DNA from: Mytilus trossulus
Taxonomy: Eukaryota
DNA: 64,000 nucleotides
Direction: 5' to 3'
Assembly (NCBI RefSeq): GCF_036588685.1
Contig: NC_086386.1
Location: 57,846,001-57,910,000, forward strand
The notes beneath the pieces were generated by a model. The model had not been told where the DNA came from and did not search any database. It worked only from the letters and a program-made list of their open reading frames with translations. Made by a program: the position numbers and the translations under genes. Positions within the stretch are counted from its first letter, which is position 1; each line of letters begins with the position of its first letter. This document shows positions 16,455-59,540 of this stretch, one piece after another.

Positions 16455-19400
16455 TTAACCAACAACTCCTGGATTAAGAGTGCTTGGAATCAAAACATGT
16501 GAAATGATGTGCACAACGCCATTTTCAGCCTCGATATCGGTTACCTGGAGAGTAGCTGCATGGTTCAAGACAGGGTTATTATCTAAAAGTAAATAATGAT
16601 AACATAAGTGATTGATATCATGAAATGGCGCAAATAATTACACAACATATCATTGGAAAATACGCACATTTATCTCTGTTAATACACAGGTTTGGAATGA
16701 CGTTCACCCTTTTGATCATATGCGCATGTCAGAAGTAACTACAACGACAGAACACTGGAAAAGATCGGACTTGAAGTAAATCATTAAGATGTCAAAGACA
16801 TTGGGCCAATTTCCTATAATTTTGTTTGACAAAAGGGACATTTTCTAAAAGTATGTAAAACTATTGAGGTTCTATCAATAGTTTGGTGTATTTGAAACAA
16901 TTGTCTTAATTTTGAGTTCAAACGTATAAAAAGAGCATCCTTTAACATAACAAAACTAATTTGGAAAAAAATTATACCAGGCTTATGGTTGTGTAAGCTA
17001 GACGCGCGTTTAGTCTTCAAAATACTCATCAATAATACCGGCGTCACACATTGGCAAATAGACCGCCGTGCACCAGACGTACAAAGAAAATTGACTAAAG
17101 TCGTATACGTTAGATGAACGCAACAGAAACGCTTACAAGCCTTACACGCGCGTTGCATAAGTTTAAAGTACGTCGAAATGCAGAGGTATAATTATACGCT
17201 TGGTAAACGCTATAACTCCATGATTTGTTTATGCAGCATGAATATTTTCATCTAGCTGTAGCGGTTGTCAAGCGTATAACTGTTCGCTACACGAACGTAC
17301 TATATATTTTACAAGCGCGTAGCAAAACGCTATGTACAGATACGGTTGAGACACGTTTAGGGAACGTTGTATACGCTATAAGATCGTTCGACTTTTACTT
17401 GGTCTTTTACTTGGACGTTTGCGGGGAGTGTCTGTAACATACGACTGGCAAAGTTTTAGCGCTATAAAACGCAACCGTGGCGTATCAAAAACGTATTCTG
17501 GTATACAACGAATCGAAACTTGCTGTGATATTTTTTTGGCGTGTGTCCGTGAATTTACAAGGCCATGTGTACCAAACACGTCCCAGACACGCCGAAAGCA
17601 TCCCAGGTACGGCCGGGACGCGTCACAACTACGTTCACAAGAACGCTTTTCCTTCGTAGCGTGTAGCGTGTATTTCAACTGCGTTAGACAAACGCCATAC
17701 ATACGCAAACATACGTTACTTCAACGTCCGATATACGCTTATTTACGCTTCTCGTACGCCCGAAAGACGTTAAAAACTCGATGTGCACTCAAAAGATATA
17801 ATTGAAAAATTAACAGAGTCAAAATTACTAACGTATTGGCATTGCACATTGCATTGCATTTATGGCGTACGTCTGTGCTATACTCTGATGTGTGACGCTG
17901 GTGTTATACGCTCGAGTCAACCAGTTAAAAAGCAAAATAACGTATGTAAAGTTGAAGAACATTTAAGCCACAAAAAAGTAGTAGAGTTAGTATAGTATTA
18001 TTATGCGAATATAGAGTTATCAATTTGAGTGAGATACGTCCAATTATGCAAACACAGCAATATTTAACATTGAAAAATATTTTTGAAAAAAAATAAATAT
18101 TAAAATCGTTGATATGTGCAGGATAGTATATCTATAGACTCTCTAATTAGGCTTTTAAAACCTTCCCAGATTTTTGACGCATTTGATTTGTTAAAACAGA
18201 TACTAGGGGGTTTGCTCCATCTCTTCGCCAGTTTAGGTAGTTACTGAAAAAAATACTAAATTCAAAAATTGTATAAGTAAATCATTATATGTATACTAAT
18301 AAAAACACCGTCGCCAACCCGTTACAAGGGTACTATCATCGGATACAAGCAAGGCTTAGGGAAATATCATTAAAATTAAAACATCTGTCATCATATCTTT
18401 TTATAGAAAACAAAATCTTACTGCTATCAACGGTAACACTAATGCTATGTCCCCTGTACATTGTAGTCAGTGTTCCTGCGTGATCTAAACTCTTCTCGTG
18501 GATTGTTCCTGGGTGAACATGATAATCAACAATATCTGAAACCAACAAAGACGACATTTGAATCCACATTATACAGAAAATAAACGAATTTAATTGAAAA
18601 GGTACAGTACCCTGCCCAGATTTTATACTTTTCTCTTACTATGAGAACTCCTCAAGTTTTTTTCTTAGTTGGTTTAAAGATGTTTGCCTATCAACCCCTA
18701 TACTTCCCGACTTTTTATCTATATCATCGCTTGGAATTCTTGTTATTTCTAGACATAACTAACGTAACAATTCAGTTATCACGTCAGGCTGGAAAATCCA
18801 AATGTTTTGTAAAAATAAAAAAAGACATTTTGTGCAAACCGGAAGAACTGTACATGGTTAGCCTATTAGTCAAAAATATCACGGCCAAAGATAGCAGGAA
18901 AAATACATAATATAATATATTTTGTTTGGGAATTTGACATTGAGATAGTCGAGCATGCTATCCATTGTTGATTGAACTGCTTGCTTTGGTGAAAACGTCT
19001 CGTAAAATGGCTCGTCCATTTGTTTGTATTGATCTCAACAGTGCTTTAAAAAAATCTTAACGTTATCACGTGACTTTCAGTTGTGTGTAAAAAGAAACCA
19101 GACCGGTAAAACGGAATATCTCGAAACTAAAGGTGTCAGACCACAACTTAAAATCCCTATCTTTTCAACCCAAATTCAGCAATTTTCACATCTTTCTAAA
19201 TGTTTTACCTTAAGTTTAACTTCATGGTCATGATTTGTACATGACTCAGCTTTCTACAAGCCAATTGTCAACATACTTTTAAAGTCTTCCGATAAAAACA
19301 CTGACCTTCTAAGAGGTAATCCCAAAATAACCACTGGTTTTCTAGAAATCTTTATGTGTATACTATGGAGCGCATTACTCATGAATGTTAATGTAAACTA

Positions 19401-22219
19401 ATAGACATAAGTGAATGTTGGCTTAAAATGATCTAAAAACATTACTCTTTCACAAAAAGTTTCATTTCTGCGTTGGTTACTTTACAATTTAAGTAGTTAA
19501 TAACATCAAAAGCACTATTTTATGTCAGAGTAGGGATACTTTTACATACGTTCGAAATTGGAGGGAGTAATTGGTGGTCTGACACATAAAGTAACATTTA
19601 AGTACAGATAATGTTTCACTTACGTCTAGCATAAATGTAGCTGCTTTTCAATTTTGCAATATAATCAGCATCCAGACTAGCGATAGCAGCATTGTTTGGA
19701 ACAAACATTGTGTATCTCTGTGAACCTAAAAGATAAAAGACAGATAGGAAAACTATTATATTATCAAAATCAGAAGCTGACTCCTCAGACACAAAAATGA
19801 TATCCTGCAGAAAGGGGCATATAAATGGCAGAAAAATCGATTTGAGTCAATACTGATCACCATTGTTTAGAAAATAATTAAACGGTATGACGAAAAAATG
19901 TTCTCAAATATTTAGATGTTATTTTTTTTTTTTTTTTTGTAGACTCGATGATTTCTCAATTATATTTCTAATTTAGATACACCGAAAATCTAATTCAAAC
20001 AATATGTTATTTCCTTTCGTGTGCTGTTTCATCGTATATTTTTCAAGTTTTTTTTTATTGCGTTTTTTTTAAAGAAACTAAGACTATCGATTATGATCCC
20101 TTAATATATGGAAATGTTTTTTCATACTTGTTCTATTGAAGACATCAGTCAATTTTGCTGCCTCTAAAAATTCCATAAATCCACTGATGTTATAATCTGG
20201 GTTCTTTATGACGTCAACGATGGTTCCTTCTGGTACATTTAGAACTTCATCAACAAGGTAGATAACTCCGTTTGAGCATTGAAGGTCTACTTTTGTTACT
20301 TTAGCTTGGTTGAAATACAGAGACTGCAAAGGAGACATTAATATAGGAAATTTGATATCAAGATTAACCTTAAATACATTTTCAAATATAGACAATGATT
20401 TCCAAAAGCAATGTATCAATTTTTAAAAATGTACAGCGCACTTTTTACACAGTTCACTGTGAAGGTTTCGATCCATCTGCTGATCAAGGCCTGATGAACA
20501 TGTTTACCTCATGTCAAATTTCCTTTAAAAGCTTTAGTTTTTTTTTAGATATAAGCCAAACACTGCACTTTGATCCCTATGTTCTATTTGTTGTCTTGGT
20601 GGCCATGTTTGTTGATGGATCAAAATTCGGGATACAATTTATAAACTAAAATACCCTATGGAACATTCAGTTACAGTTGAAGGTATTTGACCAAGTAGTT
20701 TTAGAGGAGAAGATTTTTGAAATAGTTTACGTAGACAGACAACTAACGCCAAGTGATTACATACACTTACAAGGTGCCTTTCGGGCCCCGGTGGGCTAAA
20801 GAGAAAATGATTGAGATAGAAAAACAAGCACGTTTTGAGTAGTGAATGTGTATGGCAGTGTTATAAAATTAAAACATGCATTTTACCAAATGAACTCAAC
20901 TTTTATTGATGTTTATTATAATTCTTATTGGAAAAGAAAAGCGTTTTTTGTTTTATATATAAAATTATATTTAAATATTCATTTTATATTGAAACTTACA
21001 CTTCCTTGAGAATAGACCCGGATGTAGTGGCCATTTAAACTGCTAAGAATTTCACCGGAAACCATATCCCAGCTGTAGATACTTCCTTTTACGACATGGT
21101 ACTGGAGAACGTTAGCGAGGGCACTGGAATCCTTCTGTAACGATGCAACTGTTGCTGGTGGAAGCTTAGCGAAGGCCTCATTGGTAGGAACGATTAGGGT
21201 AAATGGACCTATAAGAAAGTACAGGAGAATTATCTTTTTTTCGTGATATGCATGAATATGTATTTATTCTTTTAAAACCTCCAATTTAGGACATCAATGA
21301 TCGAGGATTTGCCCATTAATCCCATAAATCACCCGAAAAACATATAACTGTACACGTACAATGTAACTTCAAAACATTTACAGAGAGACATATATGTCGA
21401 CATATATCAGACCTGGGAGTCCCCACAAAATTTTGAAAAAGACATGTTGAATATGTATGGTGATAATATAACTGACTAGCTAACAGACGCAGATAAATAA
21501 AATTAAGAGTACTATGCGGTATGTGGCAATAAGACAGAAATCAAATAAAGAAAACCCACAACACCTCGTGAGGTATACATGCAATGTTTTACCAAAATAA
21601 AAAGAGATCTATATAAAACAACATCGATAATATTGTCACACGAATATAAATGACACAAACGTATAGAATTAGTTTATGTTAATAATTTATTCTAACTTTT
21701 TTATTCGGACGGATAAAGGCGATAACTGTTAGAGGAGAGTTCTTGGGAAATTAAATGATGTACATATTCCTTTACAACCTTTGTTAAGTGCAAAGCCGAA
21801 CTGATTAACTGTAACGAGCTTTACTTATGAAAGAGGCAAACTGTTTTCGATCTTTTGAGATTCGAGCCCTATGCGAGATACATTGGAATAAAATTTTACA
21901 ATTCTTCTCCTTTTTGCTTAATTCTCCCCCTTTAACCATGTTAACAGTCAAATTTACTGACAGAGAACTACGATCGCCATATTTTTAGAATTATCGTTCT
22001 TATCAGTGAAAACACATAGAAATGAAAAATATTATAATAAAAAATATGAATTTAAATGTCAAAATACTAATTACCTTGTTCCCGAAGAACATCGGTTAAT
22101 CCAGCTGAGTTGACAAAACTGGTAAATGTTGTTAAATTGGCTGCGTTCGCACAATCAACCAGATTTTCTGAGGCTGAAGCCAGGCAGATAAAGGGCAGCA
22201 ACGCTAATAAGCACTTCAT
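16455..22219 (-). CDS. secreted two-FAS1 (fasciclin; TGFBI/periostin-like family) protein A, 297 aa
   Basis: Exons 22219-22075, 21208-21000, 20323-20128, 19725-19624, 18535-18422, 16582-16455, all GT-AG, total 894 nt, open frame. Signal peptide MKCLLALLPFICLASA. FAS1 motifs GPFTLIVPTNEAF, LQYHVV, SNGVIYLVDEVL; YTMFVPNNAA, VDYHVH, ENGVVHIISHVL. Confidence 0.9.
17036..17903. mobile_element. CpG-rich TIR element (PIF/Harbinger-like MITE) in the last intron of gene A
   Basis: TIR accggcgtcacacat / atgtgtgacgctggt with TAA/TTA flanks. The interior is rich in cg/acg/cgt, unlike its surroundings. Confidence 0.6.
19131..19586. mobile_element. degenerate MITE
   Basis: Inverted ends gtgtcagaccac / gtggtctgacac. 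Confidence 0.45.
20459..20798 (+). mobile_element. 3' fragment of a HINE/pearl-like element
   Basis: Similar to the 500-bp unit and 3' end (agaggagaagattttt, acgccaagtgat, terminal hairpin) of 44400-46210. Confidence 0.55.
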
Positions 22220-25474: not shown

Positions 25475-26527
25475 ATGAATGCAACCGTACAAAAGACGCA
25501 GATGACTCAGATGTCGAATACAACGGAGCAGACAGGATCCGGATATTATGTTATACCCAAAGACACCGTCCAGTTTATTAAGACATTAACATTTTGTGGG
25601 ATTATTCCCGTGTTAGTGCTCGTCGGACTGGTTCTAAATACTCTTTGTTGCATAATGTTTTACAAGCTTAAAACGATAACATCAACCGTTGTCTTGCTCT
25701 TCTCATTGGCTGTTACTGATAATATAATTTTACTTGTTGCTGCCATGAACTCACTTTCTACAGCGTCTTTGTACTATCAAGTCCCGTTTACTATTCAGCA
25801 GAGAATACAAATTATTCCTTACTTTGATACGTACTTCAACGCTATTCCTGCACGCATTGGTAATACAATCACACTTTTGATTTCCTTGGAGCGGCTCTTT
25901 TGTGTGCTTCAACCAATGAAAATTAAGCAATACTCTTCCAAGAAATATGGAATAATTGCTGTTGCATTTGTCTATATTTTTACGTTTATAATGTGTCTGC
26001 CATTACTCTTTATTTATCGAACAAAAGAAATTTACTCTAATAAAACAGAAAGTTTTGTTTCTATAATTCAACCAACGGAACTTGGAAGGAATGAACCGTT
26101 TTCTGACTCTTTCTACGTAACCATGGCTACATTGTTCAAGTTAGTTCCGGTTTTTGGAGTTATGCTATCCAGTACAATAACCGGAGGTGTTGTTTTGACA
26201 TCCGCTAGGCGTCGCGTCAAAATGACAACCAGTTCGCAGGTATCATCCAATCAGAAAGAGATGCAGGTCACGAGAACGCTCTTGTTTCTAACGTTTTCAT
26301 TTTTCGTCTGTCAGCTGCCTACTGGAATATTAATGATCATCATTTTTATAGGAATGACGCCTTATAAATACACAAGTAATATTTTTGAAGTTGCAATGTC
26401 TGTAGGTTACATTCCGCAAGTGTTAAATTCTTGCATCAATTTTATCATATATTACATGACAGGCGAAATCTACAGAAATGAAATCAAGTCGCTTTTTTGT
26501 CGAAAAGACGAGCGTACAAAAAATTAA
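25475..26527 (+). CDS. rhodopsin-like (class A) 7TM GPCR, FMRFamide-receptor-like/Srw-like, single coding exon, 350 aa
   Basis: Seven hydrophobic segments with GLVLN (TM1), LAVTD (TM2), ISLERL (DRY-like), CQLP (TM6) and NSCINFIIY (TM7). N-terminal glycosylation sites NAT and NTT. First ATG is at 25475; the ORF track starts at a TTG. Confidence 0.92.
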   Translation: MNATVQKTQMTQMSNTTEQTGSGYYVIPKDTVQFIKTLTFCGIIPVLVLVGLVLNTLCCIMFYKLKTITSTVVLLFSLAVTDNIILLVAAMNSLSTASLYYQVPFTIQQRIQIIPYFDTYFNAIPARIGNTITLLISLERLFCVLQPMKIKQYSSKKYGIIAVAFVYIFTFIMCLPLLFIYRTKEIYSNKTESFVSIIQPTELGRNEPFSDSFYVTMATLFKLVPVFGVMLSSTITGGVVLTSARRRVKMTTSSQVSSNQKEMQVTRTLLFLTFSFFVCQLPTGILMIIIFIGMTPYKYTSNIFEVAMSVGYIPQVLNSCINFIIYYMTGEIYRNEIKSLFCRKDERTKN

Positions 26528-28028: not shown

Positions 28029-28093
28029 TTATTTGGCGACCAGTGTGGTCAAGAGTTTACTAACGAACATTTATAATAATTCATTCTGTAAAA

Positions 28094-31000
28094 ATGGCTG
28101 CTAGCGGTCTGTTAATTTTTTTGGTAATTTTCAGTACTTTAGCTGCTGATGATACAATTCAAGATGGTGGAGGCTTTGTTTTCTCTAATTTAGTACAAGG
28201 ACTTAATGTTAGCCAATATACGGCAACTACTCTAGACGTCCTGAAGAATTCTGGAATTATTGAAATCCTTGAAGTCGGTGGTATGTTTCAGTACTAGTTA
28301 TGCTTGTCTATTTTTGTTACCATTATTTGCGATAAAGAATTCAAACCGTTTGTGGTACATTATCTAAACCTTCATGTAACTTTATATCTTTTGAAGGTTA
28401 CCGATATTTTTAAACGTTCCCTGTCATAGCATGTCTTAAAACGGAATTTTTTATTTTGAATTTAAATAAATTATGTCATAAATGTATGTAATGAAGTTAA
28501 CCACTATTATAGATTTTCAGACATGATTATTCCAAAAATTGCGAATTACATTTTATTACGTTGTTAGATAACAAAATCAAATTTTGCAATATCATGATGC
28601 CTTGTGACGTCAATAAACATAATATACAATAACTTATATCAATCACACTTATTTAACACTAAAATAAGGAGACGCGTCACACGCGTACTAAGTTTCGTGT
28701 TAAAGCCCGAAAAATCCCTGACGTAGCAAGATTGTATACTGAGTCGACAGCAAATAAAGAAATAAAGTTCACATAGTACTCAAAAGACAAAAACAACTCC
28801 ACGATCAAAAGAAAAAAATACCTCCATGACCAACAGAAAACAGATAACGTTAACAACGCCATGACAATGAAAAAACCAACAACAGATAAACATGATTCGT
28901 CTTGACAATTTTAATATAGCTGGGTTTTTTTTTGACAATATTAAATTTAAATGTGAGTTCTAGAAACAGTTTGCCGTTGCTATCATTTTAAATCAAATTA
29001 AAAATTAATTAAAAACTGAATGCGACTGTCCATGTTAATCTTTAATATTCTCCGGTGTATTTCCAGGTCCATTTACCTTCTTCAGTCCAGACCGATTAGC
29101 ATTTGAACGACTCGGTGATACATTCAACAAAAAATTTAGAAATGACACCAAGGCAATGGCAGATTTCATCAAATTCCACACCGTGCGTCACGTATACACG
29201 TTTGACGAACTTCATGTCAATGAAAAGACGTTATGGACGCTGCATCCACAACGAATCCGGTTAAACTACTACAGAAATGGAGATGTGAGTTTTTACGTTG
29301 TTTTATTGGTGCTTTGTATATATATGTAATGTTTTGAAAAATGTTTAGATATATAATGTGCACATGTTTCTGACTGGATGCATCTTAAAACACCAATTAG
29401 AAAATAGAGAATAATCCTTATTATTTTAGAACATACATGTTGTATTTGTATACTTAAGTGTCTTTCTCAGATAAATCCATGCAAAGTCATCCAGATTATT
29501 GGATTGACATGTAGGTTGCCGTTATTTGTCAAAACATTCAAAATGGATGACAGATACGTCCTTCTAAAGATTCAGGTCTCTTAAAGAAACACTGAAGATA
29601 CCGAAGGGACAACTAACAATGTCATGGTTAAAACGGAAAAGACATGCAAACAAACAACAGAACACAAAACACAATATAAAAACACCAAAAGACTGAGCAA
29701 CACGAACATCTATGCGCAAAACTGCACATTTTTTTAATGAAGTAATTGCATGATGTATGTTGCCAAAATTGTCAAGATTAAAGAGAAAAAAAAACAGATC
29801 AAAGGTAAATACTGCCAAATAAGCATGCCCATGGGATTTTGCAACCCTCCTTAGAGTGTACAAACAAATGGCAATTGATATTTCTGTTTCTTCTATTACA
29901 GACACTGCTTATACAGGGATCAAGAGTAATGGCTAAAAATATGCGAACAAAGAATGGCATTATTCATGTTGTTCATGATGCCTTTTTCCCGCCAATTGGA
30001 AACATTATGGACGTCCTATATAATGACCCAGACTATACTACATTTATTCATGCATTACAAATAACAGGCATGATAAAGAGCATGCAAGATGGTATGCAAT
30101 TATTAAAATTATTTTAATATATGGATCTCAAAATCATTACCAATGTTGATACAGACACATCAGAATGTATATGTATAAATATGGGCACAACTCACGAGGC
30201 TTGCACCTAGATTGAAGTTTACGTTTTTGAAGAAAAAAAATATTGCTGTTCTTGTATGGTTTGGAAAAAAAGTGGTAACTCATGATAGGCCAAAAACAAG
30301 TGTAAGAACATTGAAGAGGACCATCCATTATCAACAAATAATGAAAGTGACCAGTATGCTTTAACAAATAGACTATAACTTTATACCTAAGTATTTTTTA
30401 GGAAAAGGGGCGTGGGCAAGGATGTTATTAGAATAAAGGCAGGATAGGAGTTCTGAGTAAAAAAGGCAGGAATGGTAGCTCCCTAAAACAGAAATTTAAC
30501 AAAAACGTGTTATTCTAATACACCGAGATACCGGGGAGATTGTTAAATTTTAAAAGATAAAATTTAATATATCTGGAAACTATGGTTTTGATGTCAGTAT
30601 GAAATCAGGGCAAGTAAAAACAATCGATTCTTGTGAAATCTCCAGGGTCCGACTATTTAAACACGTACCTGACACAAGCCAGATTGACCACAAACTGTCA
30701 TGGGTCATCTTTGCATGTAAAACTCGCAACTTTTATAGCTTAATCTCGATTTCCGTGGCATCATAATAATTTATAATTGGAAAAATAAAATAAATGTATT
30801 CGAACATAATTTTCATAATGTTGGCTGTGTACTGTTCTGAACGAGTAATACATTTATCTTGATTAAAAAAAAAAATTTAGTTAATTAGAGGTATACACAG
30901 TGTAACTGATTACCAACATATAAACTTACAAGAATTGATGTTTCAGGGGGACCATTTACCGTATTTGCACCAGAAAATACAGCATTTGTTAGATTTGGAG

Positions 31001-33060
31001 TCGATGAATGGCAAAAACTTCAAACAAATGTGACAAATCTACGAAGTAAGTAACATAACTCTGAACGGCTTCAGCTTCGAAATTAGAATTTAAGAAATGT
31101 AATCTCTGGTCATATTCTTACATTTTTTTAATCATATAGTTACCAAGATATTAACAGGGAGACGGTTGTTTTAAACCGTTTTCTAGTACACAAAATAAGT
31201 GTGTTTTTTTAATATTCTTAAAATCAAAGGTCGTTAGTTTATCATTCCAACGAGTTCAATGTAAAGAAGTTCAATTGATTATACATTTATTTGTTCAAGC
31301 AAGCTGATCGAATAATCGGTCGCGTGTCTTTCTTATTTAGCGTACAGTTAAGATTTATTTCGCGAATTTAAGTAACGACAACAAGATCGTACATTTTTTT
31401 TAATTTATTATTTAATATTTAAACTGCTATTTTACAATGTATACTTACTTTAAAGTAGTTCTCCACTTTTACCCCTGGACGTAAAGAAACTATTACAAAA
31501 AGCAAGTACATTTTATACTGGTGTAGTTTAAATAATGTGTCGATAAAAGAGTTCTTTCAATTGCCTCTTTGTTTTTCAGAAGTGTTGGAGTATCACGTGA
31601 TACGTGGAACAATATACTCAGTAGGAGTACAAGATCAAAGTTATCCATCATTATATCGTCGTAGTCCTTTAAAGTTAACTTCAACTATCATGGGTAGGTA
31701 GTTAACTATAAGACACAAAATATTTTAAATACAAAATAAGACATTGTGGTATCATTCGTCACGACTCGGCCGATTCCGTACCTTCATTACGGAGAATAGC
31801 GAATTCACCCGAGGATTGCCGATTGTATGTGGTATGATTGCAAATGAGACGATGACGTACGTTCTGCAACAATAAGCAAAATGTATACCATATATGGTTG
31901 GCTATAAAATGCAAAATGTGAAGAAAAAAGTTACAAATAAGGATGCCCTCAACAAAAAAAGATTAATTTGAATTCGAAAGCTATATAATTATATATGCCT
32001 CTACTGCTCACAGTGTTTCGGTTTGATTTAGACCAAAGTTCTTCGGTATTAAATTTATTTTGATAAATACTATAGGAGGAGCGAAAGACACCAGAGTGAC
32101 ATTAAAAAATAACAATGCAGTTTTTAGCCATCCTTTTTTACATTTTATATTTTTTTTCAAAACTTTAAGTTTACTTTTGAAACTATCATGGTAAAACTGT
32201 GACAAATTACAATGTTTACATTGAAACATGTTTTACCCGCTATGACCTTGGTGTAAAATAAAAAATCGGGGAAAATTAACTTTTAAATGTTTATTTTTTG
32301 TATCTCATATCAATTATTTTAATGCCAACTTTTGTAAAGTAATCCCATATACAAGGACATACATATATATACATGTATATATGGTTGAACATCAATGTGT
32401 GCCAAGGCTAAGTACTAGATAAACTAGTTATGAAATCGCTTTCTCTTTCTATCAGTTTGAGATTGATTTTGGACTAGTTTTCAGAAACAGAAAGTACTCT
32501 TCAGTAAATACTTGCATATGTTTTTTTTTTATTGTTTACTCTTTTTATTATTATGTTTTTTTCAACGATTTTATTTACACATTGCCAGTTAATAGGGTTC
32601 AGTTTATTAGAATCCAAATCCTAATCATGAATAAATTTAGCTATCTCAGTTATAATATGCTTTTTTAGATTTAATCAAGTCTCAAGTATGTCACTTTATT
32701 TTGATTGTACTTCTATATTCATTAGATTGATGGACCCTACTATTCTCCATTTATTATATTTTTGCTAATTTCTATGTTGTTTTTTGTGCCCTTTTCTATA
32801 TTGTTTGCCCAATTTTCTCTTTTCTGTATTTCGCATGTAAACCCTATCTATATATTTTGAACTGTATATATTTTATTTTCTTAGGAGACAAGATTTATGC
32901 GAATGGAGCGGTTGTAAAAGAGAAGGACACACATGCAACGAATGGTGTTGTACATAAACTGACCAAATTGCTGACCCCTGCAGATTTGTTTGATGTTATA
33001 CATTTCAAAGAGCCATATGGATCAAACAAAAATACCAACTATTCACAGATAGTTGGTTAG
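28094..33060 (+). CDS. secreted two-FAS1 protein B, 327 aa
   Basis: Exons 28094-28280, 29067-29284, 29902-30091, 30947-31045, 31580-31693, 32885-33060, all GT-AG, total 984 nt, open. Signal peptide MAASGLLIFLVIFSTLAA. Motifs GPFTFFSP, KNGIIHVVHD, GPFTVFAPENTAF, LEYHVI, ATNGVVHKL. AATAAA at 33113. Confidence 0.9.
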
Positions 33061-36862: not shown

Positions 36863-39800
36863 ATGTTGAAAGTAATACTCCTGTCGGTGTTTGTCCCTCT
36901 TTGTTTGGCGGCTACCACCCCTGCCACCAATAATATTGTTTCTGTACTTGCGGCACGTAGCTCAGAATCAATCTTAGTAGATTTGGTAAAGACAGCTGGA
37001 TTAGCAGATGTTTTGAGCCAAGGAGGTAATTTTGTAAAATAAGAATACTTTCGCTTAGGGTAGTATTTTCGTCATCTTGGGTTTTAAATTAACAGAACAT
37101 GATCGGCCCAGATATGATGCAGAAATACAACAACAAAAATTTAACAAACAAACTAATAGGAGTTTAGGTTAAAACTTAGATTAAGAGTTATTTTTTCGTA
37201 TTTCATTTCACAATTACATTATATTATGACATATTGATATGTTTCCTGTACAAATCATACAAAATGTGTATTTAGTTTCACAACCAGCAGCTTGAAAAAA
37301 GGGGGTATACTATTTCCGATGATTTTGTATGTGGTAAACAATAACAGAAAATTTCCCCCTAAATTTTACCAATTGTAAGCTTTATTATTTCTTTTAGTTG
37401 CTCTTACTTGACAGAGTACCAGGAGAAGCATTAAAAAAGAGTTCACTGTCAAAACCATTTAGAATAAAAACAAACTGGGAATCTGGACAAAATATTGTTG
37501 GATTGACGAAAATAGGGGGACTAAAAAATGTTTAAATACTTCAAACAAAATACAACTTTGTATAGAATTATTAATTTGAATACATGGATATGGCATTTTT
37601 CCTTGGAATTTCCCAAAAATATGTCGCCTTTGCCATGGAAATTACACAAATGTCAAAACAAAATGAAATTTGGTCCAATCTTTATGAAACTTAATACAAA
37701 TGTGACCCGTTAAGTGTATATGTACTATCCAGTTTTTCAAACTGGCTGCTGTTAACATGCAAACAGCAGAACAGTGGTTGAGCTGTTTTAGCATCCTAAC
37801 ACAGGATTACTTGTGTATATATATCAATGGAAACAAGTATGTCTAAACAAGGGAAAACTCTACGACAGCTCCATTCATTGCATGACCAGTGAAGGTGGTA
37901 CACGGCTTCAAACTCAAATTATATTCATATGTACCCTAAACATCAGCACAACAATGTTTAATCTTCAAATTTGAGGAAGCAAAGTTGTGTTTTTTTCTTA
38001 TACGGGATTCGAACTCATGTTATTGAGATATCGAGACCTCACCGCCTGCGTGCAATGTGTCCAGCGCTCTAGACCATTCGGCAACCTAGGCTTAACTCAA
38101 AATTCAACTAGCGGTGACCTCGGTTAACATATCTTCGTCAGTAGAATCTAAGATTTGTAACACAGTACATGATATATTAGGTATGCAGTCAGAATTAATG
38201 GTAGATTAGCTAAAATAATAAATATCTTACTATCTCCCTTTTAGGTCCATTCACAGTTTTTGCACCATATAACTATGCCTTCCAGAGACTTGGAAATGAT
38301 ACTCTTACGGCCCTTAAGAAGGACCCAAACACACTCGCTGAAACCCTCAAATACCACGTTGTCAATGGTATATACAAACTGAAAGATCTTCATGTTAATG
38401 AACTCCAGCTAGACAGTTTGGCAGGAACCAAAATCAGAATCAACTATTATTTTACAGCAAGAGTGAGTTTATTTAAAATTTTGAATTATAAAGGTAAAAA
38501 CTCGAAAAATATAAATAAGATCAAAATTGCAAAAAGCAGGATTTGGTAAATCCTTCCCCGTCACACATTCTTTAACTCTTTTTTAAATACGTTCTTTTTC
38601 TTTTATTTAGAGACATGTAACAGTTGAGGGTTCTAGAATTCTCCAATCAGACATAATGGCCAGTAATGGTGTCATCCATATTGTACATGACGTCATGATG
38701 CCAGCAGCCGGAAGTATTGTTGATGTTTTGACAGCTGATGGAAACTTCTCTACACTTGTAGCTGCAGCAAAGGCCGCTGGTCTTGTCGAGGCCCTTCAAC
38801 GTGAGTAATTTCGAAATATATTGCTAGTGGGTGGGTTTGAATTACTTTACGTTCGTTTAATGAATAACTCAAGCTACTCAGAAGCATGTTAACCACTATT
38901 AATCATGTGTAGCCTTTTTCGTTCTTGATTTCATTCTCAATAAATTTGGAATTAAAATACGAAAATTCAAAAGATGCGTAGATATTTCCGTAACATAAAA
39001 AAGAATATCGAAAGATATAAATTGTGGGATACTGTACTGGATATACTAGTATCCAGACGAAATGTTCACAGAACAGCTTGACGTCACGCAAGATATTACC
39101 CAGAAGCCAAATACGTTGGTGTCAAGAAAAAGAAAACAAGTATAAAACATGTGAGAATTATAATAAGCTTTTCTACGTTTTGGCTCAGATTCTATTATTT
39201 GACAATCAAAATAAAACAATAAAACTTCTTGCTTCACTTGTCCTCAATTCGTCGTGCTTGGCAATGTTTTCGCGGGGTACCAATCTCACTCTATCACCCT
39301 CTCAGCTATGTGTTATTTATATAATGCCACACAAATTTGTCTTAACTTATAAATTATTATTTTGCAGAAGGTCCTTTCACTTTGATGGCACCATCAAATG
39401 CTGCCTTTGCAGCTCTAGGAGACAAAGTTGATAAACTTTTGGCTAACCCAGATCTCCTGAAGAGTAAGTTTCGTTATACAAATGTATGTCAAGTGTATTT
39501 ATGTTAAAGTATGCTAGAACATCATCTTTATGTTTAAACTTGTCCATTTGCCTCACCCTGCATGTATAATTAGTATAAATTTGTCAGTCCTGAAAGAGAG
39601 GCGAAATATACCAAAGGGACATTCAAACTCATCAGTCGAAAATAAACTAACAACGCCTTGCATGGCTCAAAAGAAAACGACAAACAACAGTAAACAAAAC
39701 ACAACATAGAAAACCAAAATACTGAGCAACACGAACCCCGCTAAAACTGGATAGAAGTTACAACAATTGAAACATATCCGTTGTCACTGTGTTATGAAGA

Positions 39801-41037
39801 TTTAATATACTATTCAAACATAAAAGGCATGATTGTATATTAAAACAAAAACAGATACAAATCACCAGAAAATAAATAATAAAACAACCGAAAAATAATA
39901 ATTTAAAATGCAAAAATTCAAAAAACGAAATAAAGTAGTATGACCACTAAGAAACAAAAATCGCAACAACAAACTTTTAAAAAAAAAAATGAAGAAATAT
40001 TTACCTGCTTTATGATTTATGACTTCTTACTTTATCGTTTTAGAGGTCTTATTGTATCACGTTATACCTGGAACAATTTACAGAGACGGTTTACACTCAG
40101 GATCTCTACACACATTGGAAGAAGCAGATCGTGAGCGAATTTCAGCTTCATTCTTTGGTAAGTACAACAAAATAGGCTGGACAAGCGCGGGCATAATGGT
40201 GAATACATGTACTTTATACAGTTTGTATGCTGTTTCTTATATCCTAGCATATGCACATCTTCAGTTTCTCTATGTTTTATTTTTTATCGAAATTGTTTTT
40301 CAAACATGTTGATTTACTTGTCATCTCATTTATATCGGTTTGCTTGTTCTGTTCCTTTTATAGTAGCAGTGACTTTGTCATTTTATGGCAAATGTTTAGT
40401 TTGGATAAGATGTTTGCTAAAAACGTGTATACGAACAACAAAACACAAACACCCCAGCTGCTATATCAATACGCCATCTTTCATATTCCATTTGGGGGGT
40501 TTTCTAATTTGGATAAGAAGAAGAAATTTCAAAAAAAATCTATATATATATATATAGAATTCCACATTCAAAAGTGTATGCAACATGCATTTACAAACAA
40601 TTGGCGGAAAGTTTATGCCTTTGAGAGGGGGTTCCAGATAACCTGCACAATCTCTTTCAGATCCTTAACAAAATTACATCTATGATGGATGATTTTGGAA
40701 TCTATTTTAGCATTTTTCCTATTCTATTTTTATGATGAAACTACCATCTAACTGTTCACAGCCTTCATCTCGAACCTTCGTAAAGTGGTTCTGTCAAATA
40801 TTAGGAACTGTTTGTTTGGACCCGCAAATACCTATGCAACACATTTGCAGTTACTTAAAGCGTATAGTTATGATAAGCAACTGTTGACTTTTGGTTTTTC
40901 TTGTAGGATCAACTGTCCATGTTGATGGAACAACAAGCGTCATCAAACCAGATATCAGCGCCACCAATGGAGTCGTCCACATGATTAACCACGTGCTCAT
41001 CCCAAGCTCATTGAGAACACAAATCATGAATTTATAA
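36863..41037 (+). CDS. secreted two-FAS1 protein C, 303 aa
   Basis: Exons 36863-37025, 38245-38462, 38611-38800, 39368-39463, 40044-40157, 40907-41037, all GT-AG, total 912 nt, open. Signal peptide MLKVILLSVFVPLCLA. Motifs GPFTVFAPYNYAF, LKYHVV, ASNGVIHIVHDV; GPFTLMAPSNAAF, LLYHVI, ATNGVVHMINHVL. AATAAA at 41044. Confidence 0.92.
37810..38090 (-). mobile_element. tRNA-derived SINE
   Basis: The minus-strand head gcctaggttgccgaatggtctagagcg...gagttcgaatccc has Pol III A- and B-box matches. A related fragment lies at ~55410-55488. Confidence 0.6.
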
Positions 41038-52810: not shown

Positions 52811-55800
52811 TCAAAATGTGGCGGGAACAAGTACGCCATCAATAACATGTATAACACCATTAAGAACTGGAATGTCTGGCTGTGTAACGTGTGCGTGGTC
52901 AATAGTGACGGCTGAAAAATATAAAAGCATTTTTCTCTAAATAGATTCAGCGGGTATTTTTAATCGCGAAAAGATATTAAAATTTTCAAAACTAAAAATA
53001 AAACAAAGTTGAAATTTCGGACGAATTCCAAAGTCTTGCAAGCAATATCAGTGGTGGATCCAGAAGGGGGAATCCGGGGGTTGAAACCCCCTTTTTGGAC
53101 GATCAATGCATTTGAGTGGGAATGAGGTTGAACCCTTCCCACTTTTAACAATGGCTGGATCCGCCCCTGAAATGGCTGAATATGTTATACGTGTTTTGTT
53201 ACCATAATTCTATTGCACAAGGTTCCATGGATCTTTTTTTGTTGTTGGTTTTATCATATGCATTTCATGAAACATAGATACATGTATGAGGGACGTCCAG
53301 AGGGGTTTATATACTAGAGAAAACATATAGAAAAAAAAAGAATAGAGAATAATGGGATGTTTAAATATAAAGATTAGAGAATAATGAACTTTAAACTTAT
53401 ACAAAAAGAAAAAGAAAGAAAATATGAAAAAAGGTGATACTCATCTGACCCGCATGAAATCAAAATCTTCTGTAAATCTCCCCATGGACGGACCTAGCCA
53501 TTTTTAAAAGGGCTCACAACCTAGGAGAAATGTTCTTAACATATTTCCCCATTCAAATACATTGATCGTTCAAAGAAAGGGATTCAAACCTCATACCCCC
53601 TCCCCCGGCCCGGATCTATCACTGCTGATGCCACTAGTTCCTATGCCTAATACTCACCTGTGCCTGCTTTAGTGACTGTAAAAGCACTTCCGGCCAGAGT
53701 TGATACTTTTTGTCCATCTTTAAGATCTGCAGCGTATGTAGATCCACTGACCACATGATATTTCAAAATATCTAAATAAAAAGATAAGATATGATTGATA
53801 CATTTTGATATTATGATACTATTGATATGACAAAATATAGATTGAGTAAAAAACATATTTCTTCTGGCGAGACTATATTGTGTACTTTGTGTTCGCTTGT
53901 TTTCTCGCTTTGTTTTTTGGTAATGTTTTAATGATACATTAATGAACCACGACGTTGTAAGCGGCAGTATTGCATTATGTACGTCGAATAAATGCAAAAC
54001 AAATAGCAAGAAATCAGTTTACTAATTATATTTGCAAATTATGTAACTCTATAGATATTGGGGTGATATAAGGCAGCAACCATTTGATTTTCGAGGGGGG
54101 AAAGGGGGGGGGGGGGGGGCTATGGATTTTTTTGAGAAAAAAAAGTGTTTTTCCAGTTTTTAGAGAAAAACATAATTTGTTTTTGACCCTGAGAATAAAA
54201 ATGTGTTTGTTTCACCCTCAGATGCCAATATCGGTAATGCTAAAATTGAAAGAAAAAAAATGTTTTCGACTTGTTGCAAAAAAAAGATTATCTTTTGCCG
54301 AAGGCGAAAAAAAAAGTTTGTCCAGAAAAAAAAAGAAAAAATCCCCCCACCCCAGAAAATCGAATGGTTTCTGCCTAAGAACCATATAAAACATACCAAA
54401 ATTCATCTTTCATTTGACATGTATTTATCTAAATGTTTCAAAATCTATCAAAGTTATATACAAGTACAAGTACAATCATGCATACGTACACAAGCATGTC
54501 ATACAAGTCGATTTCTATCTTACGCAGCTCTTATTTATACAGTAAGCTTCTTATTTTAAGAGTTCATGATAGCCGGTTTCGGTATATTTGTACAATGTAC
54601 ATGCACAGCACACGGCGGAATTTGAAAGAAAGAAAACAATACTTTTGACATAAACAAAAAAATAGATCTATAGAGCATGCCGCAAAAGATCTAGGATATC
54701 TCTCGATTTTCCTTATTTAATATACGTGCCAATGAGTCAAGTTGAAAATATATAACTTTTACAAAATTTTCTATCATGTAATGATGGATTTCTCACGAAA
54801 AAGATTGGATTATGTCATAATATCTTACTTTTAAAAAGATTCATATCTGAGGCTAGACTTTGTAGTGAGGTTGACAAAGTTGCGAATGCTGCATCTGTTG
54901 GTGCAAATAACGTGAAAGGTCCTGGACCTACAAAAGAAAAATCATAAGAATAAGGTACATGTTGAGAAACTGTCAGTGTGACACTAGACTCTAGAGGTCA
55001 ATGATAAAAGGTCATTCAAGGTCAATGACATAGGGGCATCCAAGTTCAATGATAGACATGCATCCATACTAAATATTGAGCTCTTAAATAATCCGATTAC
55101 AATATACACAAATAGAGAAGACCGCTAGGGTTAACCGGTTGTTTGGAACCAAACTAAAAAATGTAAAAATGTCCTTTCCCAGTGCTAGGAACCATTTATA
55201 AGGCAGTTACCATTTAAATTAAAAAAAAGGGTTGTAGTCCGATTATATTTACGTTATTTTTCGACGCTATCAATCATAACTTATTATTTTCAAAATTTAA
55301 CACTAAAAAGTATGGGGGACTATTTTTGTCACCTGCTTGACCACAGTATTTTTTTCATTAACTTAGGATCAGAATATTTTTAAGAGAAAAACGTAATTAT
55401 ATCTATATAAATACAACTCGTCTAAACATCAACCCAACAATGTTAGATCTGTAAATTTGTTCTTCCCTCGCCGGGATTCGAACCCATGTATATATATATA
55501 TGTAGGCATTCGTATTGAATTTAGGCAAACTACTAAACACCAGCTTGCATGCTATGAAAAACGTTTAATTTTGTTTGACACGACGCACATGTTGACTGCT
55601 CTTTCGTATTAACACAAACTAACCTTCTAGTGCTGACAGTAAACCACCAAGTGTCAATGCTGCCGTCAGGTCACTGAATTTGTCTTGATTTTTCAAAAGA
55701 TACTCAACCATATTGACGCTTGCAGCTGGAACATTGAAGACGAAATCAATTCCTTGTACAACACCATTAGATACTATGACGTCGGGAAGGATAACTTTGA

Positions 55801-58800
55801 CACCATTAACCATTACTGCCTACAATATAAATCACAAAAGCATATAAATCGTGAAAGCCGATCATGATCGATTCATTATGATTTTGAGTCGATGTAATAA
55901 AACGATCGCGATTGATTATTTCGTATCAATTCAGACCGACTCTACTGACACCATATATGGTTGGTCTCGATAGCTCTGGTTAATTGATTCATTTATTCGA
56001 GGTCCAAATAAAATTGTAAAACGTCCTTATATGAAACGACCTGTTTAAGATCAGAAAAAAGTCAAAGGGACTTAAGGGTTGATCGCATGCAATAGTTCTT
56101 ACAATTTAATGATCGACCGGATTCAAATGAACAAAAAAAAATCAATTTATTATAAAAAACAATTTTATCAATGTGAAATGCAGGCAAATTACATAAGATA
56201 TACGTATGCTTGTCTATCTCCTTAGGCTTTGTTTACCTTTTTAGAAATGTTTTGCAGAATTGGAAATGTTTAAATCTTATTTTATTTTTATTTTTTTATG
56301 ATTCGACATTAGAATTATCGCAATAATTAGTATCTGATACATTTTAGATATAATGTATACGCGTTGATTCTTGAAAAAGAAACCATGAGCCCGGAAAATG
56401 AATAGCCTGACGTCAAGACAGTGGTTTAATTTATATGACCTTGTGTTGATATAGGTACATCAAAAACGATGAATCATTTAGCCCCATAATATGTTGTTAT
56501 TAAAACATGCAGGGAAGTTTTTCCAAAAGACATACACACGCTCCTAAAAGGACAACATTCTATTGATATGATAATAGGAAACACGAACTGGGGAACAATG
56601 TAGTTTATAAGCACTAAATTGTTTCCTTATACATTAGGTGAACCTTGTTTCAGAGATATGACTCTTAAATCAGTTAATGCCTTTGTAAAAGTCAAGTTTC
56701 ATCAACGTATTTTAATCATGTACATGCGACAGATTGGAAATAATCCGTTACCCAGATGCTTAGAATATATTTATAAAAATGGTTGACACAAGCATACTGA
56801 TGATTTTAAGAGTTATTTCCCTTAATCTCTGTCTAACTACTAATATCACAACAATGGGATTTCAGTATTTTCTGTGAATATATCTGAACTTTGAAACTAT
56901 AAATAAGAATGACACGAAATAGGCAAACTAGAATGAAATTGGCTCAAGGGTTCATGAAAAAAAACCCGAATAATCAAATTACTAAATAACGTAAAGCTTT
57001 TAAGTTACAAGTTATTCTACTTTTATATAGCTACATTAAACTTACGCCAGCGCCATCTTTGGTCAAAGTTAAGTTAGTACCGCCAAGGGATACTTCGTTG
57101 TCTCCGCTTTTGATGAATGGTGAAATGAGTGCTCCATTTGTCACATGTTTCAGCAACAAACTTCTGATTGCAGTTTGATCATTAAGAAGTTGTTGTAAAA
57201 TTGGTGCTGGTATTTTCTGGAAGGCGGCATCAGTTGGTATAAATGCCGTAAATGGACCTGTACATTACAAATGTTGATCAGTATATGTTTCATAATTCAG
57301 TTTATGATATTGTAGATTAAAATTTAAAACAGATATAGAATCAAATTTAAAAATTCAACAGTGTTTTCAACCGACAATCTTTCTGAGTTTGCTCCCGTTG
57401 GTTTGCTGTGGTTTGCGTTGCATGCGCAATTCTTAGTTTTCGTACTTTTTGTTTTGAAATGGTGTTTGTCTTTTAGTCTTTGTTTCTTTTGGCCATGTTA
57501 TTTTCTGTGTTCATCCATTATATACGGTTTGCTCCTTCCAAGTATCTTCTCTCCCTATATCCAAGATGGTGTGAATAATGTTTACAGCATAAAAAAGAAT
57601 GGTCCGAGACTACGGGTCAATAGACAAAAGACTTCCAATATAAAGGAGATGTCACAGTAGTTTAAATACAACGAAAACAAGTTGTAACCATATCTGAATT
57701 CAAGGAGATGTATATCATCGTTGTTAGTTGACAAAATATCCTCTAACTTAGTTATATTTTGAAATAATTACATTAGATGTATGTTTTATTATAAAACTTT
57801 ATTCTGATTGACTAACTGCACATCACATGTTATTCCTCAAGCAATTGCATCACTCAATAAAACTTTTCATTCATGATAACACGTGGTCCCACAATAAAGT
57901 GCACAGGTGAATTGAATAAAAAAGTTATAAAATTCATGTTTTCATGAACATAGCTAAAAAATGTAATTATAAGTATTGAATGCTTCTTTTTGTAACTTCA
58001 TAGGGTTGTAAAATCGTTGACCATGCGCACATTTTTAGAAAATGTACTTCGGTCAACGCTTTTACACCCAAATGAATTTAGAAAAAGAAGCATTCAATTC
58101 TTAATTACAATGTATTCGAACAAAATTCCTTCTAAAACAGCGTTATCTCCTGATGCAAAACAGTCAATAATATACCCAGCAATAAAGTATATAATTATCA
58201 GTAAAACTGTGATATACATATAAAGAGATGTGGAAGGATTGAAACAGCTATCCACAATGACCAGTGGACAAGAATGTAAACAATAACATGTCACAGTATG
58301 GCCTTCAGCAATAAACAAATCTATACTGTAAAGTTTGCCGTAAAATGTCCCAACCTGGATGACAAAACAATTCATAAAACAAAACAAACTATATGCTATG
58401 AGCTAAAACCGATAAACTGAAAAACATAAAACATAAAACTACTGAAATACAAACTCCTCACTTGGGACAGACACAACCTGACAGAATGTAGAAGATCAAA
58501 GGTCAAGGTCGTCATAACCTCTTACCTTGTGTCAACCATATTAGATCATTGAATGCAGAACTTGTCTCAAGTAATTTTCATCCTTTATCTATCATTTTGT
58601 AAAAATAACAAAAACGACAATTTTAAGTTCCCAACGGAGACATAAACATTTTTTTATCAACATATTTCTTGTTTGTTTATCGATAGATACCAACTAACAA
58701 AATTTCATGAAAAACCTGAGACTATGCGTTGCGCAATTTTGTTGATGATAACAGAAAATTGCTATTCACATGATAACAAGCGCTATAATACCGAATGTAC

Positions 58801-59540
58801 TAAGAATAAATGGTCATTGGACTGATGCTTGCACGCAATATCATAATTTTTGTTCAGTAAACCGTGAAATCGGGGTTACAATCGTTTTTGGCACATATAT
58901 TTACTTTAGCGTTTACCTTACAATGAATGACCTAGTGCACTAAACTTCGAGTAATTGGGACCAAGACGAAATGGCGAAACCAAATGACCATAAGATAAGA
59001 TGGACGGACGGACGAATGTTCCTATGATATAATAGTAAGGGCAAATGAAAATATCTAAGATAACGTGTACATATGTGTAAATGAATGATAAAAAGAATGC
59101 CCCTTCCGCACTATCATTTTCTATGTTTATTGGACCGTGAAAATGGGGTAAAAACTCTAATTTGGCATTCAAATTAAAAGAATCATATCATAGGGAACAT
59201 GTGTACTAAGTTTCAAGTTGATTGGACTTCAACTACATCAAAAACTACCTCAAAGCTTTAACAGGAAGTGGGACAGACGGATGAACGAACGGACACACAG
59301 ACCAGAAGACATAATGCCCATAAATTGGGCATAACAAAACTTGTATAAAAATAATCAAAAACCTTATATAAAGATAATCATACCTCCTGATTGAAGTTCA
59401 GTTGTCAAGTTTGCAATTTTAATAGCTTGGACGGCATATGTAAAATTGGCTGGTTTGCTCTGTAAATATTCTAAAATAGTTGCTCCAAATGAACCAGATA
59501 AACAAGACAGAAACACGGCACACACATACAAAGACCTCAT
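52811..59540 (-). CDS. secreted two-FAS1 protein D, 292 aa
   Basis: Exons 59540-59384, 57257-57046, 55819-55624, 54927-54829, 53771-53658, 52911-52811, all GT-AG, total 879 nt, open. Signal peptide MRSLYVCAVFLSCLSGSFG. Motifs GPFTAFIPTDAAF, VSNGVVQGIDFV; GPFTLFAPTDAAF, LKYHVV, NGVIHVIDGVL. Confidence 0.92.
53049..53169. mobile_element. small GC-rich MITE (cagtggtggatccag...ctggatccgcccctg)
   Basis: Imperfect TIRs. Related copies at ~42385, 42895, 51548 and 52060. Confidence 0.6.
57963..58108. repeat. imperfect palindrome (MITE-like)
   Basis: gtaattataagtattgaatgcttctttt..tgtaaaa.cgttgacc / ggtcaacgcttttaca..aaaagaagcattcaattcttaattac. Confidence 0.7.
59095..59335 (+). mobile_element. HINE/pearl-like repeat; related copy at ~14385-14545
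   Basis: Shared string aacatgtgtactaagtttcaagtt..gacttc..catcaaaaactacctc..acggacac.cagaccagaa.acataatgcccataaat. Confidence 0.65.

What the first reader, a model, noticed from the sequence alone, without database searches (positions are those of the whole stretch)
16455..59540. Hidden cluster of four intact paralogous secreted two-FAS1 genes
Seen: four genes share six exons, intron phases 1,0,1,1,1 and a 114-nt exon 5. Each has a signal peptide and exactly two FAS1 domains, with no EMI domain, TM segment or GPI tail. Established: vertebrate TGFBI and periostin have EMI plus four FAS1 domains, whereas two-domain ~32-kDa FAS1 proteins include sea-anemone sym32. Inference: this is an old, highly diverged lineage-specific array of soluble adhesion or matrix proteins, possibly for shell, byssus, mucus or microbe interaction.
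Basis: partly seen in the sequence, partly recalled or inferred. Interest (0 to 1): 0.75.

Follow-up and report, generated by a model that had tools for sequence, protein, structure and literature searches.

The report
Four mussel two-domain fasciclin genes
These are four real, already annotated mussel genes for small two-domain fasciclin proteins that are predicted to be secreted and likely act as soluble adhesion or matrix proteins; they are an ordinary old gene cluster of a known family whose job in mussels is untested.

Summary
Four six-exon genes (A-D) have intron phases 1,0,1,1,1, a 114-nt exon 5, GT-AG at 20 of 20 introns and two FAS1 domains each. They are 25-35% identical to each other. 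RNA-type contigs support 11 of 11 introns tested, and no B-C join appears in the 15 of 60 joints shown.

The genes are not hidden. Each equals a RefSeq Mytilus trossulus model at 100%, and orthologues at 93-99% occur in other Mytilus species.

The design is not mussel-specific. Two-FAS1 proteins of about 300 aa also came up from oysters, scallop and limpet, and anemone sym32 has the same layout. B+C are sister to a family shared by oyster, scallop, ark shell and mussel (95/83), so that lineage predates the mussel-oyster split. A and D are unplaced.

They are not TGFBI or periostin proper, since they have no EMI domain and only two domains. They are best read as soluble adhesion/matrix linkers of the sym32 or half-periostin type. 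A shell or byssus role has no support here. Ordinary; low interest.

The parts
16455..22219 (-). Gene A, 297 aa, 32.2 kDa, pI 5.6. Exons 22219-22075, 21208-21000, 20323-20128, 19725-19624, 18535-18422, 16582-16455. Equals M. trossulus XP_063414666.1.
   Evidence: (100% to P0125); intron 1 joint in 3 of 4 runs; full-length relative on a 1157-nt contig
28094..33060 (+). Gene B, 327 aa, 36.9 kDa, pI 8.5, no Cys, 25-residue polar tail. Exons 28094-28280, 29067-29284, 29902-30091, 30947-31045, 31580-31693, 32885-33060. Equals XP_063413496.1.
   Evidence: (100% to P0040); introns 1-3 as joints, 4-5 as loose ends; relative on a 1092-nt contig
36863..41037 (+). Gene C, 303 aa, 32.5 kDa, pI 6.8, the least diverged of the four. 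Exons 36863-37025, 38245-38462, 38611-38800, 39368-39463, 40044-40157, 40907-41037. Equals XP_063413416.1.
   Evidence: (100% to P0134); 5 of 5 introns as joints; model of its 96.7%-identical orthologue P0060
52811..59540 (-). Gene D, 292 aa, 30.5 kDa, pI 5.7. Exons 59540-59384, 57257-57046, 55819-55624, 54927-54829, 53771-53658, 52911-52811. Equals XP_063413458.1. Domain 1 has KH for YH and scores as an even-type domain.
   Evidence: (100% to P0146); outside the stretch laid
14561..14701 (-). Truncated, likely decayed second copy of gene A's last exon, 84% identical over 144 nt. Its own splice acceptor is replaced by a dispersed repeat.
   Evidence: not tested for splicing
25475..26527 (+). 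Intronless rhodopsin-family GPCR ORF between A and B; a neighbour, not shown to be part of the system
   Evidence: Pfam 7tm_1 E 1.1e-18
61503..62351 (-). Single-exon ORF for a 282-aa, 14% Met, signal-peptide-like protein upstream of D; a neighbour, not shown to be part of the system
   Evidence: (100% to P0147); no Pfam family, no usable atlas hit

Best explanation
These are four separate spliced mussel genes, each encoding one 30-37 kDa pair of FAS1 domains behind a predicted signal peptide, and they likely work as soluble, non-enzymatic adhesion or matrix linker proteins like half a periostin or like anemone sym32. Shown: gene structure, shared intron positions, two-domain content, absence of EMI, TM and GPI parts, splicing of A, B and C, and conservation across Mytilus. 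Predicted: signal-peptide cleavage, N-glycosylation (2-4 sequons each), and a domain pair packed like half of TGFBI/periostin. Inferred from the family: after secretion the pair would bind cell-surface receptors of the integrin type and matrix or mucus polymers, tying cells such as haemocytes or epithelia to their surroundings. Inferred history: old local duplications of a six-exon two-domain gene, with B and C sisters, followed by divergence of surfaces and probably of tissue use.
For: Gene anatomy. Pfam two FAS1 in 4 of 4. H1 and H2 in 8 of 8 domains and YH in 6 of 8. AlphaFold models pLDDT 86.5 (C orthologue P0060) and 88.9 (A) with disordered N-termini. The C model matches TGFBI/periostin across both domains, TM 0.74-0.82, rmsd 2.0-2.9, but not the insect fasciclin I pair, rmsd 15. 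RNA-type joints; 12 of the 14 exonic substitutions listed there are synonymous (the table showed 40 of 117 rows). B and C domains sort into the odd/even classes using profiles that exclude them (+25/-21 and +37/-36 bits), the pattern described for sym32, periostin and TGFBI in PMC3141003 (passages). Family function: PMC6032426 abstract and section 4 part 1. Proteins with the same annotation name occur in the shipworm crystalline style, octopus skin mucus, oyster hyalinocytes and scallop mantle; these are matches by name, orthology not tested.
Against: No ligand, tissue or localisation data exist here for any of the four. No RGD motif, and the Asp-Ile before H2 implicated in TGFBI-integrin assays is present in only 4 of 8 domains. 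FAS1 domains have been repurposed elsewhere (AstaP), so family function need not carry over. A domain 1 is neutral (-0.5 bits) and D domain 1 scores as even-type (-21 bits), so these two do not fit the odd+even unit cleanly. The AlphaFold match may reflect TGFBI structures in training. Two papers state that the function of such proteins in oysters or molluscs is unknown. D lacks transcript evidence in my calls.
Confidence: 0.6

Rival explanations
1. They are sym32-like recognition proteins of gut, gill or haemocyte surfaces that would bind algae or bacteria, in feeding, immunity or microbiome control, rather than the animal's own matrix.
For: Same two-domain ~32 kDa layout as sym32, which sits at the perisymbiotic membrane. 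A TGFBI-named oyster gene marks hyalinocytes. Similarly named proteins occur in mucus and style proteomes. Multi-copy expansion in oysters.
Against: All links are by name. sym32 was not in my tree. PMC3141003 Table 1 lists Anemonia Sym32 with a TM segment and outer-membrane location, which the mussel proteins lack. 93-99% identity between Mytilus species does not suggest an arms race.
Confidence: 0.17
2. They are shell-matrix or byssus components made by mantle or foot.
For: Periostin-named proteins rise in the mantle of Polydora-infected scallops and in copper-exposed M. californianus larvae alongside shell genes. A Met-rich secreted-type ORF lies next to D.
Against: No Tyr/Gly/Lys-rich or acidic low-complexity composition. 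None of the 10 paper searches listed a Mytilus shell or byssus proteome with such a protein; the library lacks most subscription journals.
Confidence: 0.1
3. One or more are egg or yolk storage proteins, or egg-coat proteins, like the ~37-38 kDa fasciclin-like yolk granule proteins of sea urchins.
For: A 37 kDa TGFBI-named band rises in sea urchin gonads, and 38 kDa 'yolk granule protein; fasciclin-like' entries are listed.
Against: No sea urchin protein was compared by sequence, and no gonad data were seen.
Confidence: 0.07
4. One or more are repurposed small-molecule (carotenoid or lipid) carriers like the algal FAS1 protein AstaP.
For: AstaP structures are among the hits. AstaP binds through general FAS1 H1, H2 and YH residues.
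Against: AstaP hits rank below TGFBI, periostin and bacterial FAS1 domains. The paper places this function in a subset of green-algal proteins and reports a cyanobacterial homologue that cannot bind.
Confidence: 0.04
5. B and C, or neighbours plus B or D, are parts of longer fused proteins.
For: M. edulis models CAG2249567.1 (GPCR+B) and CAG2249565.1 (Met-rich+D) are fusions. Four-domain models exist at other loci (P0162, P0506).
Against: Each gene has its own ATG, hydrophobic leader and stop. RefSeq models in M. trossulus, M. galloprovincialis and M. edulis are separate. Full-length B and C lie on separate ~1 kb contigs. No B-C joint among 15 of 60 joints shown. P0506 repeats its signal peptide internally, the mark of a merged model.
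Confidence: 0.02

Closest known systems
RefSeq/GenBank Mytilus models named 'TGFBI ig-h3-like' or 'periostin-like' (XP_063414666.1, XP_063413496.1, XP_063413416.1, XP_063413458.1; M. galloprovincialis VDI27966/68/69/70)
   Same: Identical proteins in M. trossulus; 93-99% in other Mytilus species; near-consecutive accessions on one contig in M. galloprovincialis and M. edulis.
   Different: The names are automatic and misleading: these are two-domain proteins without EMI. No paper on the cluster surfaced in my searches.
Two-FAS1 family of oysters, scallop and ark shell (e.g. XP_062592425.1, XP_078322954.1, Mizuhopecten P0381) with M. trossulus XP_063399724.1
   Same: About 295 aa, signal peptide plus odd+even FAS1 pair; 44-50% to C; several copies per genome.
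   Different: It forms its own clade (100/98) that includes a mussel locus on another chromosome-scale contig, so C is a sister paralogue and not its orthologue. Oyster copies are 82-98% alike, against 25-35% here.
Sea-anemone sym32 / Nematostella 2Sym
   Same: Signal peptide plus two FAS1 domains, ~32 kDa, odd+even order. By eye, the Anthopleura sequence shown has the odd-domain NE..IRxNxY signature also seen in B and C.
   Different: Orthology untested. Sym32 is symbiosis-induced and membrane-associated, with a TM listed for Anemonia; no such data exist for the mussel genes.
Vertebrate TGFBI and periostin (PDB 5nv6, 5yjg)
   Same: Best solved relatives by sequence (E 1e-53 to 1e-62) and fold; pair packing like half of the protein.
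   Different: No EMI domain, two instead of four FAS1 domains, no RGD. EMI-bearing relatives form a separate, weakly supported group in my tree.
Canonical invertebrate two-domain fasciclins (Patella XP_050414723.1, Lingula XP-type six-domain P0004, Branchiostoma P0006, M. edulis CAG2230029.1)
   Same: Same odd+even unit, singly or repeated.
   Different: A slower-evolving clade (95/88) that has its own mussel member elsewhere; none of A-D falls in it.

Membership tests
FAS1 (fasciclin) domain proteins | Pfam PF02469 above cut-off | tested here: met
   152-221 bits against cut-off 22, two stretches in 4 of 4
FAS1 (fasciclin) domain proteins | H1, H2 and central YH motifs (PMC6032426) | tested here: met
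   H1 and H2 in 8 of 8 domains; YH in 6 of 8, FH in B domain 1, KH in D domain 1
FAS1 (fasciclin) domain proteins | FAS1 fold | tested here: met
   Models of the C orthologue and of A; Foldseek on the C model only
FAS1 (fasciclin) domain proteins | N-terminal secretion peptide | tested here: inconclusive
   Hydrophobic, low-pLDDT N-termini with a Lys or Arg at residue 2-3 in A, C and D; no signal-peptide predictor and no protein N-terminus data
FAS1 (fasciclin) domain proteins | Cell-adhesion or matrix-binding activity | not testable with these tools
   needs recombinant protein
TGFBI/periostin proper | Cys-rich EMI domain before the FAS1 array (recalled; EMI-type relatives seen) | tested here: not met
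   FAS1 starts at residue 16-29; 0-4 Cys per protein
TGFBI/periostin proper | Four FAS1 domains | tested here: not met
   two per protein; separate transcripts for B and C
TGFBI/periostin proper | Groups with EMI-type proteins in a tree | tested here: inconclusive
   None of A-D lies among the 7 EMI-type units, but the branch separating them is weak (61-64% bootstrap)
sym32-like two-FAS1 proteins | Signal peptide plus exactly two FAS1 domains, about 32 kDa | tested here: met
   30.5-36.9 kDa precursors
sym32-like two-FAS1 proteins | Odd-type domain followed by even-type domain | tested here: inconclusive
   Met for B and C; A domain 1 neutral; D domain 1 even-like
sym32-like two-FAS1 proteins | Orthology to cnidarian sym32 | not tested
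   No protein named sym32 came up in the search results; it is absent from the tree
sym32-like two-FAS1 proteins | Symbiosis-induced, perisymbiotic membrane location | not testable with these tools
   no tissue or condition labels on the runs
Insect fasciclin I / GPI-anchored fasciclins | GPI signal and four domains | tested here: not met
   polar tails of 2-25 residues; pair geometry differs, rmsd 15
AstaP carotenoproteins | Carotenoid binding under the alpha1-alpha2 jaw | not testable with these tools
   the passages read give no motif that predicts it

The most novel reading that the evidence does not exclude
The cluster preserves four very old, separately specialised versions of the two-FAS1 unit from which periostin-type proteins are built. 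At least the B/C lineage is older than the mussel-oyster-scallop split, and D may have replaced its odd domain with a second even-type domain. They serve as a soluble sym32-like kit that recognises algae and bacteria in mussel mucus and blood cells. This would show that the two-domain sym32 design is a general invertebrate microbe-contact module and not a speciality of symbiotic anemones.
Probability: 0.15. Interest if true: 0.55.

Novelty: new member of a known kind. Interest (0 to 1): 0.22.

Why it matters
Modest value. It corrects misleading automatic names: these 'periostin-like' and 'TGFBI-like' bivalve genes are half-size, EMI-less proteins in at least three subfamilies, which matters when transcriptome papers read vertebrate periostin biology into them. 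It also bears on a question left open in PMC3141003, whether two-domain sym32-like proteins are confined to symbiotic anthozoans: by architecture they are not. If one paralogue proved to bind microbes or food algae, the cluster would be a handy set for mapping FAS1 specificity.

Tried and rejected
No whole genome was held, so family size and synteny come from accessions and contig lengths only, not from DNA.

Expression: contig depths for B against C differed strongly among the four laid runs. The runs were found with C and contig depth cannot rank genes, so this is not counted. The GPCR had little or no cover, which shows nothing.

Orthologues of B: the all-protein search gave nothing above 35% identity among the best 150 of 16,025. 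B's own cluster was also missing, so the negative is uninformative. Searches with full-length profiles were crowded by multi-domain microbial proteins, and only 120 of about 7,900 hits were listed each time, so animal sampling is thin. Metagenome scans found nothing for D and three unrelated intronless 30% loci for C.

Horizontal transfer of D: its best hits in my microbe-heavy set were microbial-type (40-44%, against at most 38% for animals). Rejected because D shares all five intron positions with A-C and its nearest atlas cluster is molluscan (0.93, possibly its own). Bacterial-type rows were not put in the tree.

C as orthologue of the oyster family: rejected after P0506 appeared. The odd/even scores were circular for A-D and were redone with profiles that exclude them.

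The tree used 35 two-domain units chosen by me from 23 named or eukaryote-like proteins. I left out domains under 95 residues and proteins without clear pairs (Centruroides, Penaeus, P0507, P0448), as well as the microbial hits. B and D are flagged long branches, so B+C and the placing of A and D may be distorted.

No complex prediction was run, as no binding claim is made. Earlier-findings look-ups returned nothing. Supplements: 12 of 14 files of PMC8561940 searched with no hit; bioRxiv supplements are closed; Figure S7 of PMC3141003 is an image and was not seen.
Full report
Observation. I rebuilt the four genes from the window. A lies on the minus strand at 22219-16455 (297 aa), B on plus at 28094-33060 (327 aa), C on plus at 36863-41037 (303 aa) and D on minus at 59540-52811 (292 aa). 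Each has six exons with intron phases 1,0,1,1,1, a fifth exon of 114 nt and GT-AG ends at 20 of 20 introns. On a protein alignment, introns 1 and 4 fall on the same column in all four genes and the other three within 1-4 columns. A profile search of 2,879 six-frame stretches recovered all 24 exons and one extra piece, a truncated copy of A's last exon at 14561-14701. Pairwise identity is 25-35%. Pfam finds two FAS1 stretches in each protein and nothing else. The only hydrophobic stretch is the N-terminus, the tails are short and polar, and there are too few cysteines for an EMI domain.

Are they expressed and separate? I laid contigs of four runs on 21080-41079; all four are guessed, not recorded, to be RNA. 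Of the 11 predicted introns in that stretch, 9 appear as joints and 2 as loose ends that match the next exon. The B2 joint shows six other letters that encode the same two residues as the predicted exon start. No B-C joint is among the 15 joints shown; 45 were not shown. Full-length, gapless relatives of A, B and C at 97-98% identity lie on contigs of 1157, 1092 and 956 nt, far shorter than the genes, so they derive from spliced transcripts. Of the 14 exonic differences listed, 12 are synonymous (40 of 117 rows were shown). D was outside the laid stretch and rests on annotation and its intact frame.

They are not hidden. All four equal RefSeq Mytilus trossulus models at 100%: XP_063414666.1 (A), XP_063413496.1 (B), XP_063413416.1 (C) and XP_063413458.1 (D), named 'TGFBI ig-h3-like' or 'periostin-like'. 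Orthologues are 93-99% identical in M. galloprovincialis, M. edulis and M. californianus, and for A and C in M. coruscus (the M. californianus B model is partial). Near-consecutive accessions on one contig (VDI27965-70; CAG2249565-68) indicate the same cluster there. Two M. edulis models fuse B with the neighbouring GPCR and D with the neighbouring Met-rich ORF; I read these as prediction errors.

How old and how special? Two-domain proteins of about 300 aa came up from oysters, scallop and limpet, and repeats of the same unit from ark shell models, Lingula, amphioxus and arthropods. In a tree of 35 two-domain units, B and C are sisters (99/97). Together they are sister (95/83) to a clade of oyster, scallop, ark shell and a further M. 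trossulus locus on a different chromosome-scale contig (100/98). So C is not the orthologue of the oyster family, and the B/C lineage arose before those bivalve groups split, which is Palaeozoic by my recollection. A second clade (95/88) holds limpet, Lingula, amphioxus and yet another mussel gene. A and D are unplaced, and B and D are flagged as long branches. One origin for all four is not rejected (p-AU 0.138) and not shown. Shared introns prove common descent, but intron positions in the other subfamilies could not be examined, so they do not prove that the duplications were confined to mussels. Oysters carry several copies of their family at 82-98% identity, some on one chromosome, and an oyster gene is labelled Bgh3-20. 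Multiplication of such genes is therefore common in bivalves.

Domain classes. PMC3141003 (passages) reports that FAS1 domains 1 and 3 of sym32, periostin and TGFBI are related, as are 2 and 4. With profiles built from 16 odd and 16 even domains that exclude A-D, B and C are clearly odd+even. A domain 1 is neutral and D domain 1 scores as even. D's case may be a domain replacement or just erosion on a long branch. D's two domains are 34% identical, lower than the 40-44% seen in slower relatives, which argues against a recent internal copy.

Structure. AlphaFold models of the M. galloprovincialis C orthologue (pLDDT 86.5) and of A (88.9) show two FAS1 folds after a disordered leader. The C model overlays half of human TGFBI or periostin across both domains (TM 0.74-0.82) but not the insect fasciclin I pair. 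These structures predate the predictor's training, so this is consistency and not independent proof.

How they likely work. Established for the family: FAS1 proteins are extracellular, bind integrins and matrix proteins or carbohydrates, and are either membrane-anchored or soluble (PMC6032426, abstract and first part of section 4). Inferred here: the four are soluble, probably glycosylated two-domain linkers that tie cells to matrix or mucus. They differ in charge (pI 5.6-8.5), sequons, and the YH and pre-H2 motifs, which suggests different partners. I put this at 0.6. Literature on molluscs links only by annotation name, and points several ways. I saw passages only: shipworm crystalline style (PMC8561940), octopus skin mucus (PMC11431876), oyster hyalinocytes (bioRxiv 10.64898/2026.05.15.723513), scallop mantle (PMC9641012), mussel larvae (PMC8696127), a 289-aa oyster 'periostin' spot (PMC8310146), oyster larvae (PMC9498863), a clam and a mussel immune survey (PMC7430831, PMC3039611), sea-urchin gonad and embryo proteins (PMC6669438, PMC3812683) and AstaP (PMC10147662). 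Two of them say the function in oysters or molluscs is unknown. Rivals are microbe or alga recognition (0.17), shell or byssus (0.10), yolk (0.07), carotenoid carrier (0.04) and fused products (0.02).

Novelty. The genes are annotated, the architecture is known from sym32 and is widespread, and gene clusters of this kind are common. Ten searches of the held library surfaced no paper describing this cluster; most subscription journals are missing from it. They work like FAS1 adhesion proteins, are not members of TGFBI/periostin proper, and resemble sym32 by layout with orthology untested. Verdict: new members of a known kind, interest 0.22.

Noticed in passing
window 14561-14784 (-): Truncated second copy of gene A's last exon (84% over 144 nt, frame open to the same stop, H2 His and Pro changed). 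Its acceptor is replaced by a dispersed repeat whose AG near 14718 would be in frame; a relic or a possible alternative last exon.
   Followed up: partly
window 61503-62351 (-): Single-exon 282-aa secreted-type protein, 14% Met and rich in Lys, Asp and Glu, 95-97% conserved in M. galloprovincialis and M. edulis, with several Logan members; no Pfam family and no usable atlas hit. Possibly more unusual than the fasciclins.
   Followed up: partly
window 25475-26527 (+): Intronless rhodopsin-family GPCR between the divergently transcribed A and B; also adjacent to B in M. edulis, where a model fuses them.
   Followed up: partly
window 52811-59540 (gene D): Domain 1 has lost the odd-domain signature and YH (KH) and scores as even-type; best BLAST hits among fetched proteins are microbial-type.
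   Followed up: partly
window 16455-22219 (gene A): Two cysteines in the mature protein (23 and 134), both in domain 1, could form a disulfide; not measured. An M. galloprovincialis isoform has four extra residues at the intron 2 junction (P0124).
   Followed up: no
protein P0506 (XP_063399724.1): A four-domain M. trossulus model that repeats its signal peptide internally: likely two tandem two-domain genes merged, a second cluster on another chromosome-scale contig.
   Followed up: partly
window 41400-52500: Repeat-rich spacer between C and D: an 81-84% duplicated block (41688-43300 and 50513-52489), tandem ~500-nt repeats at 44400-46130, a palindromic element at 46382-47239 and a frameshifted reverse-transcriptase fragment at about 47130-48750 (RVT_1 E 8e-15).
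   Followed up: no
window 1619-4104 (+) and 8702-9086 (-): Exon-like ORFs of other genes: a weak AMOP-domain hit followed by an ORF with a TM-like segment and Tyr motifs, and a small Cys-rich secreted-type ORF.
   Followed up: no
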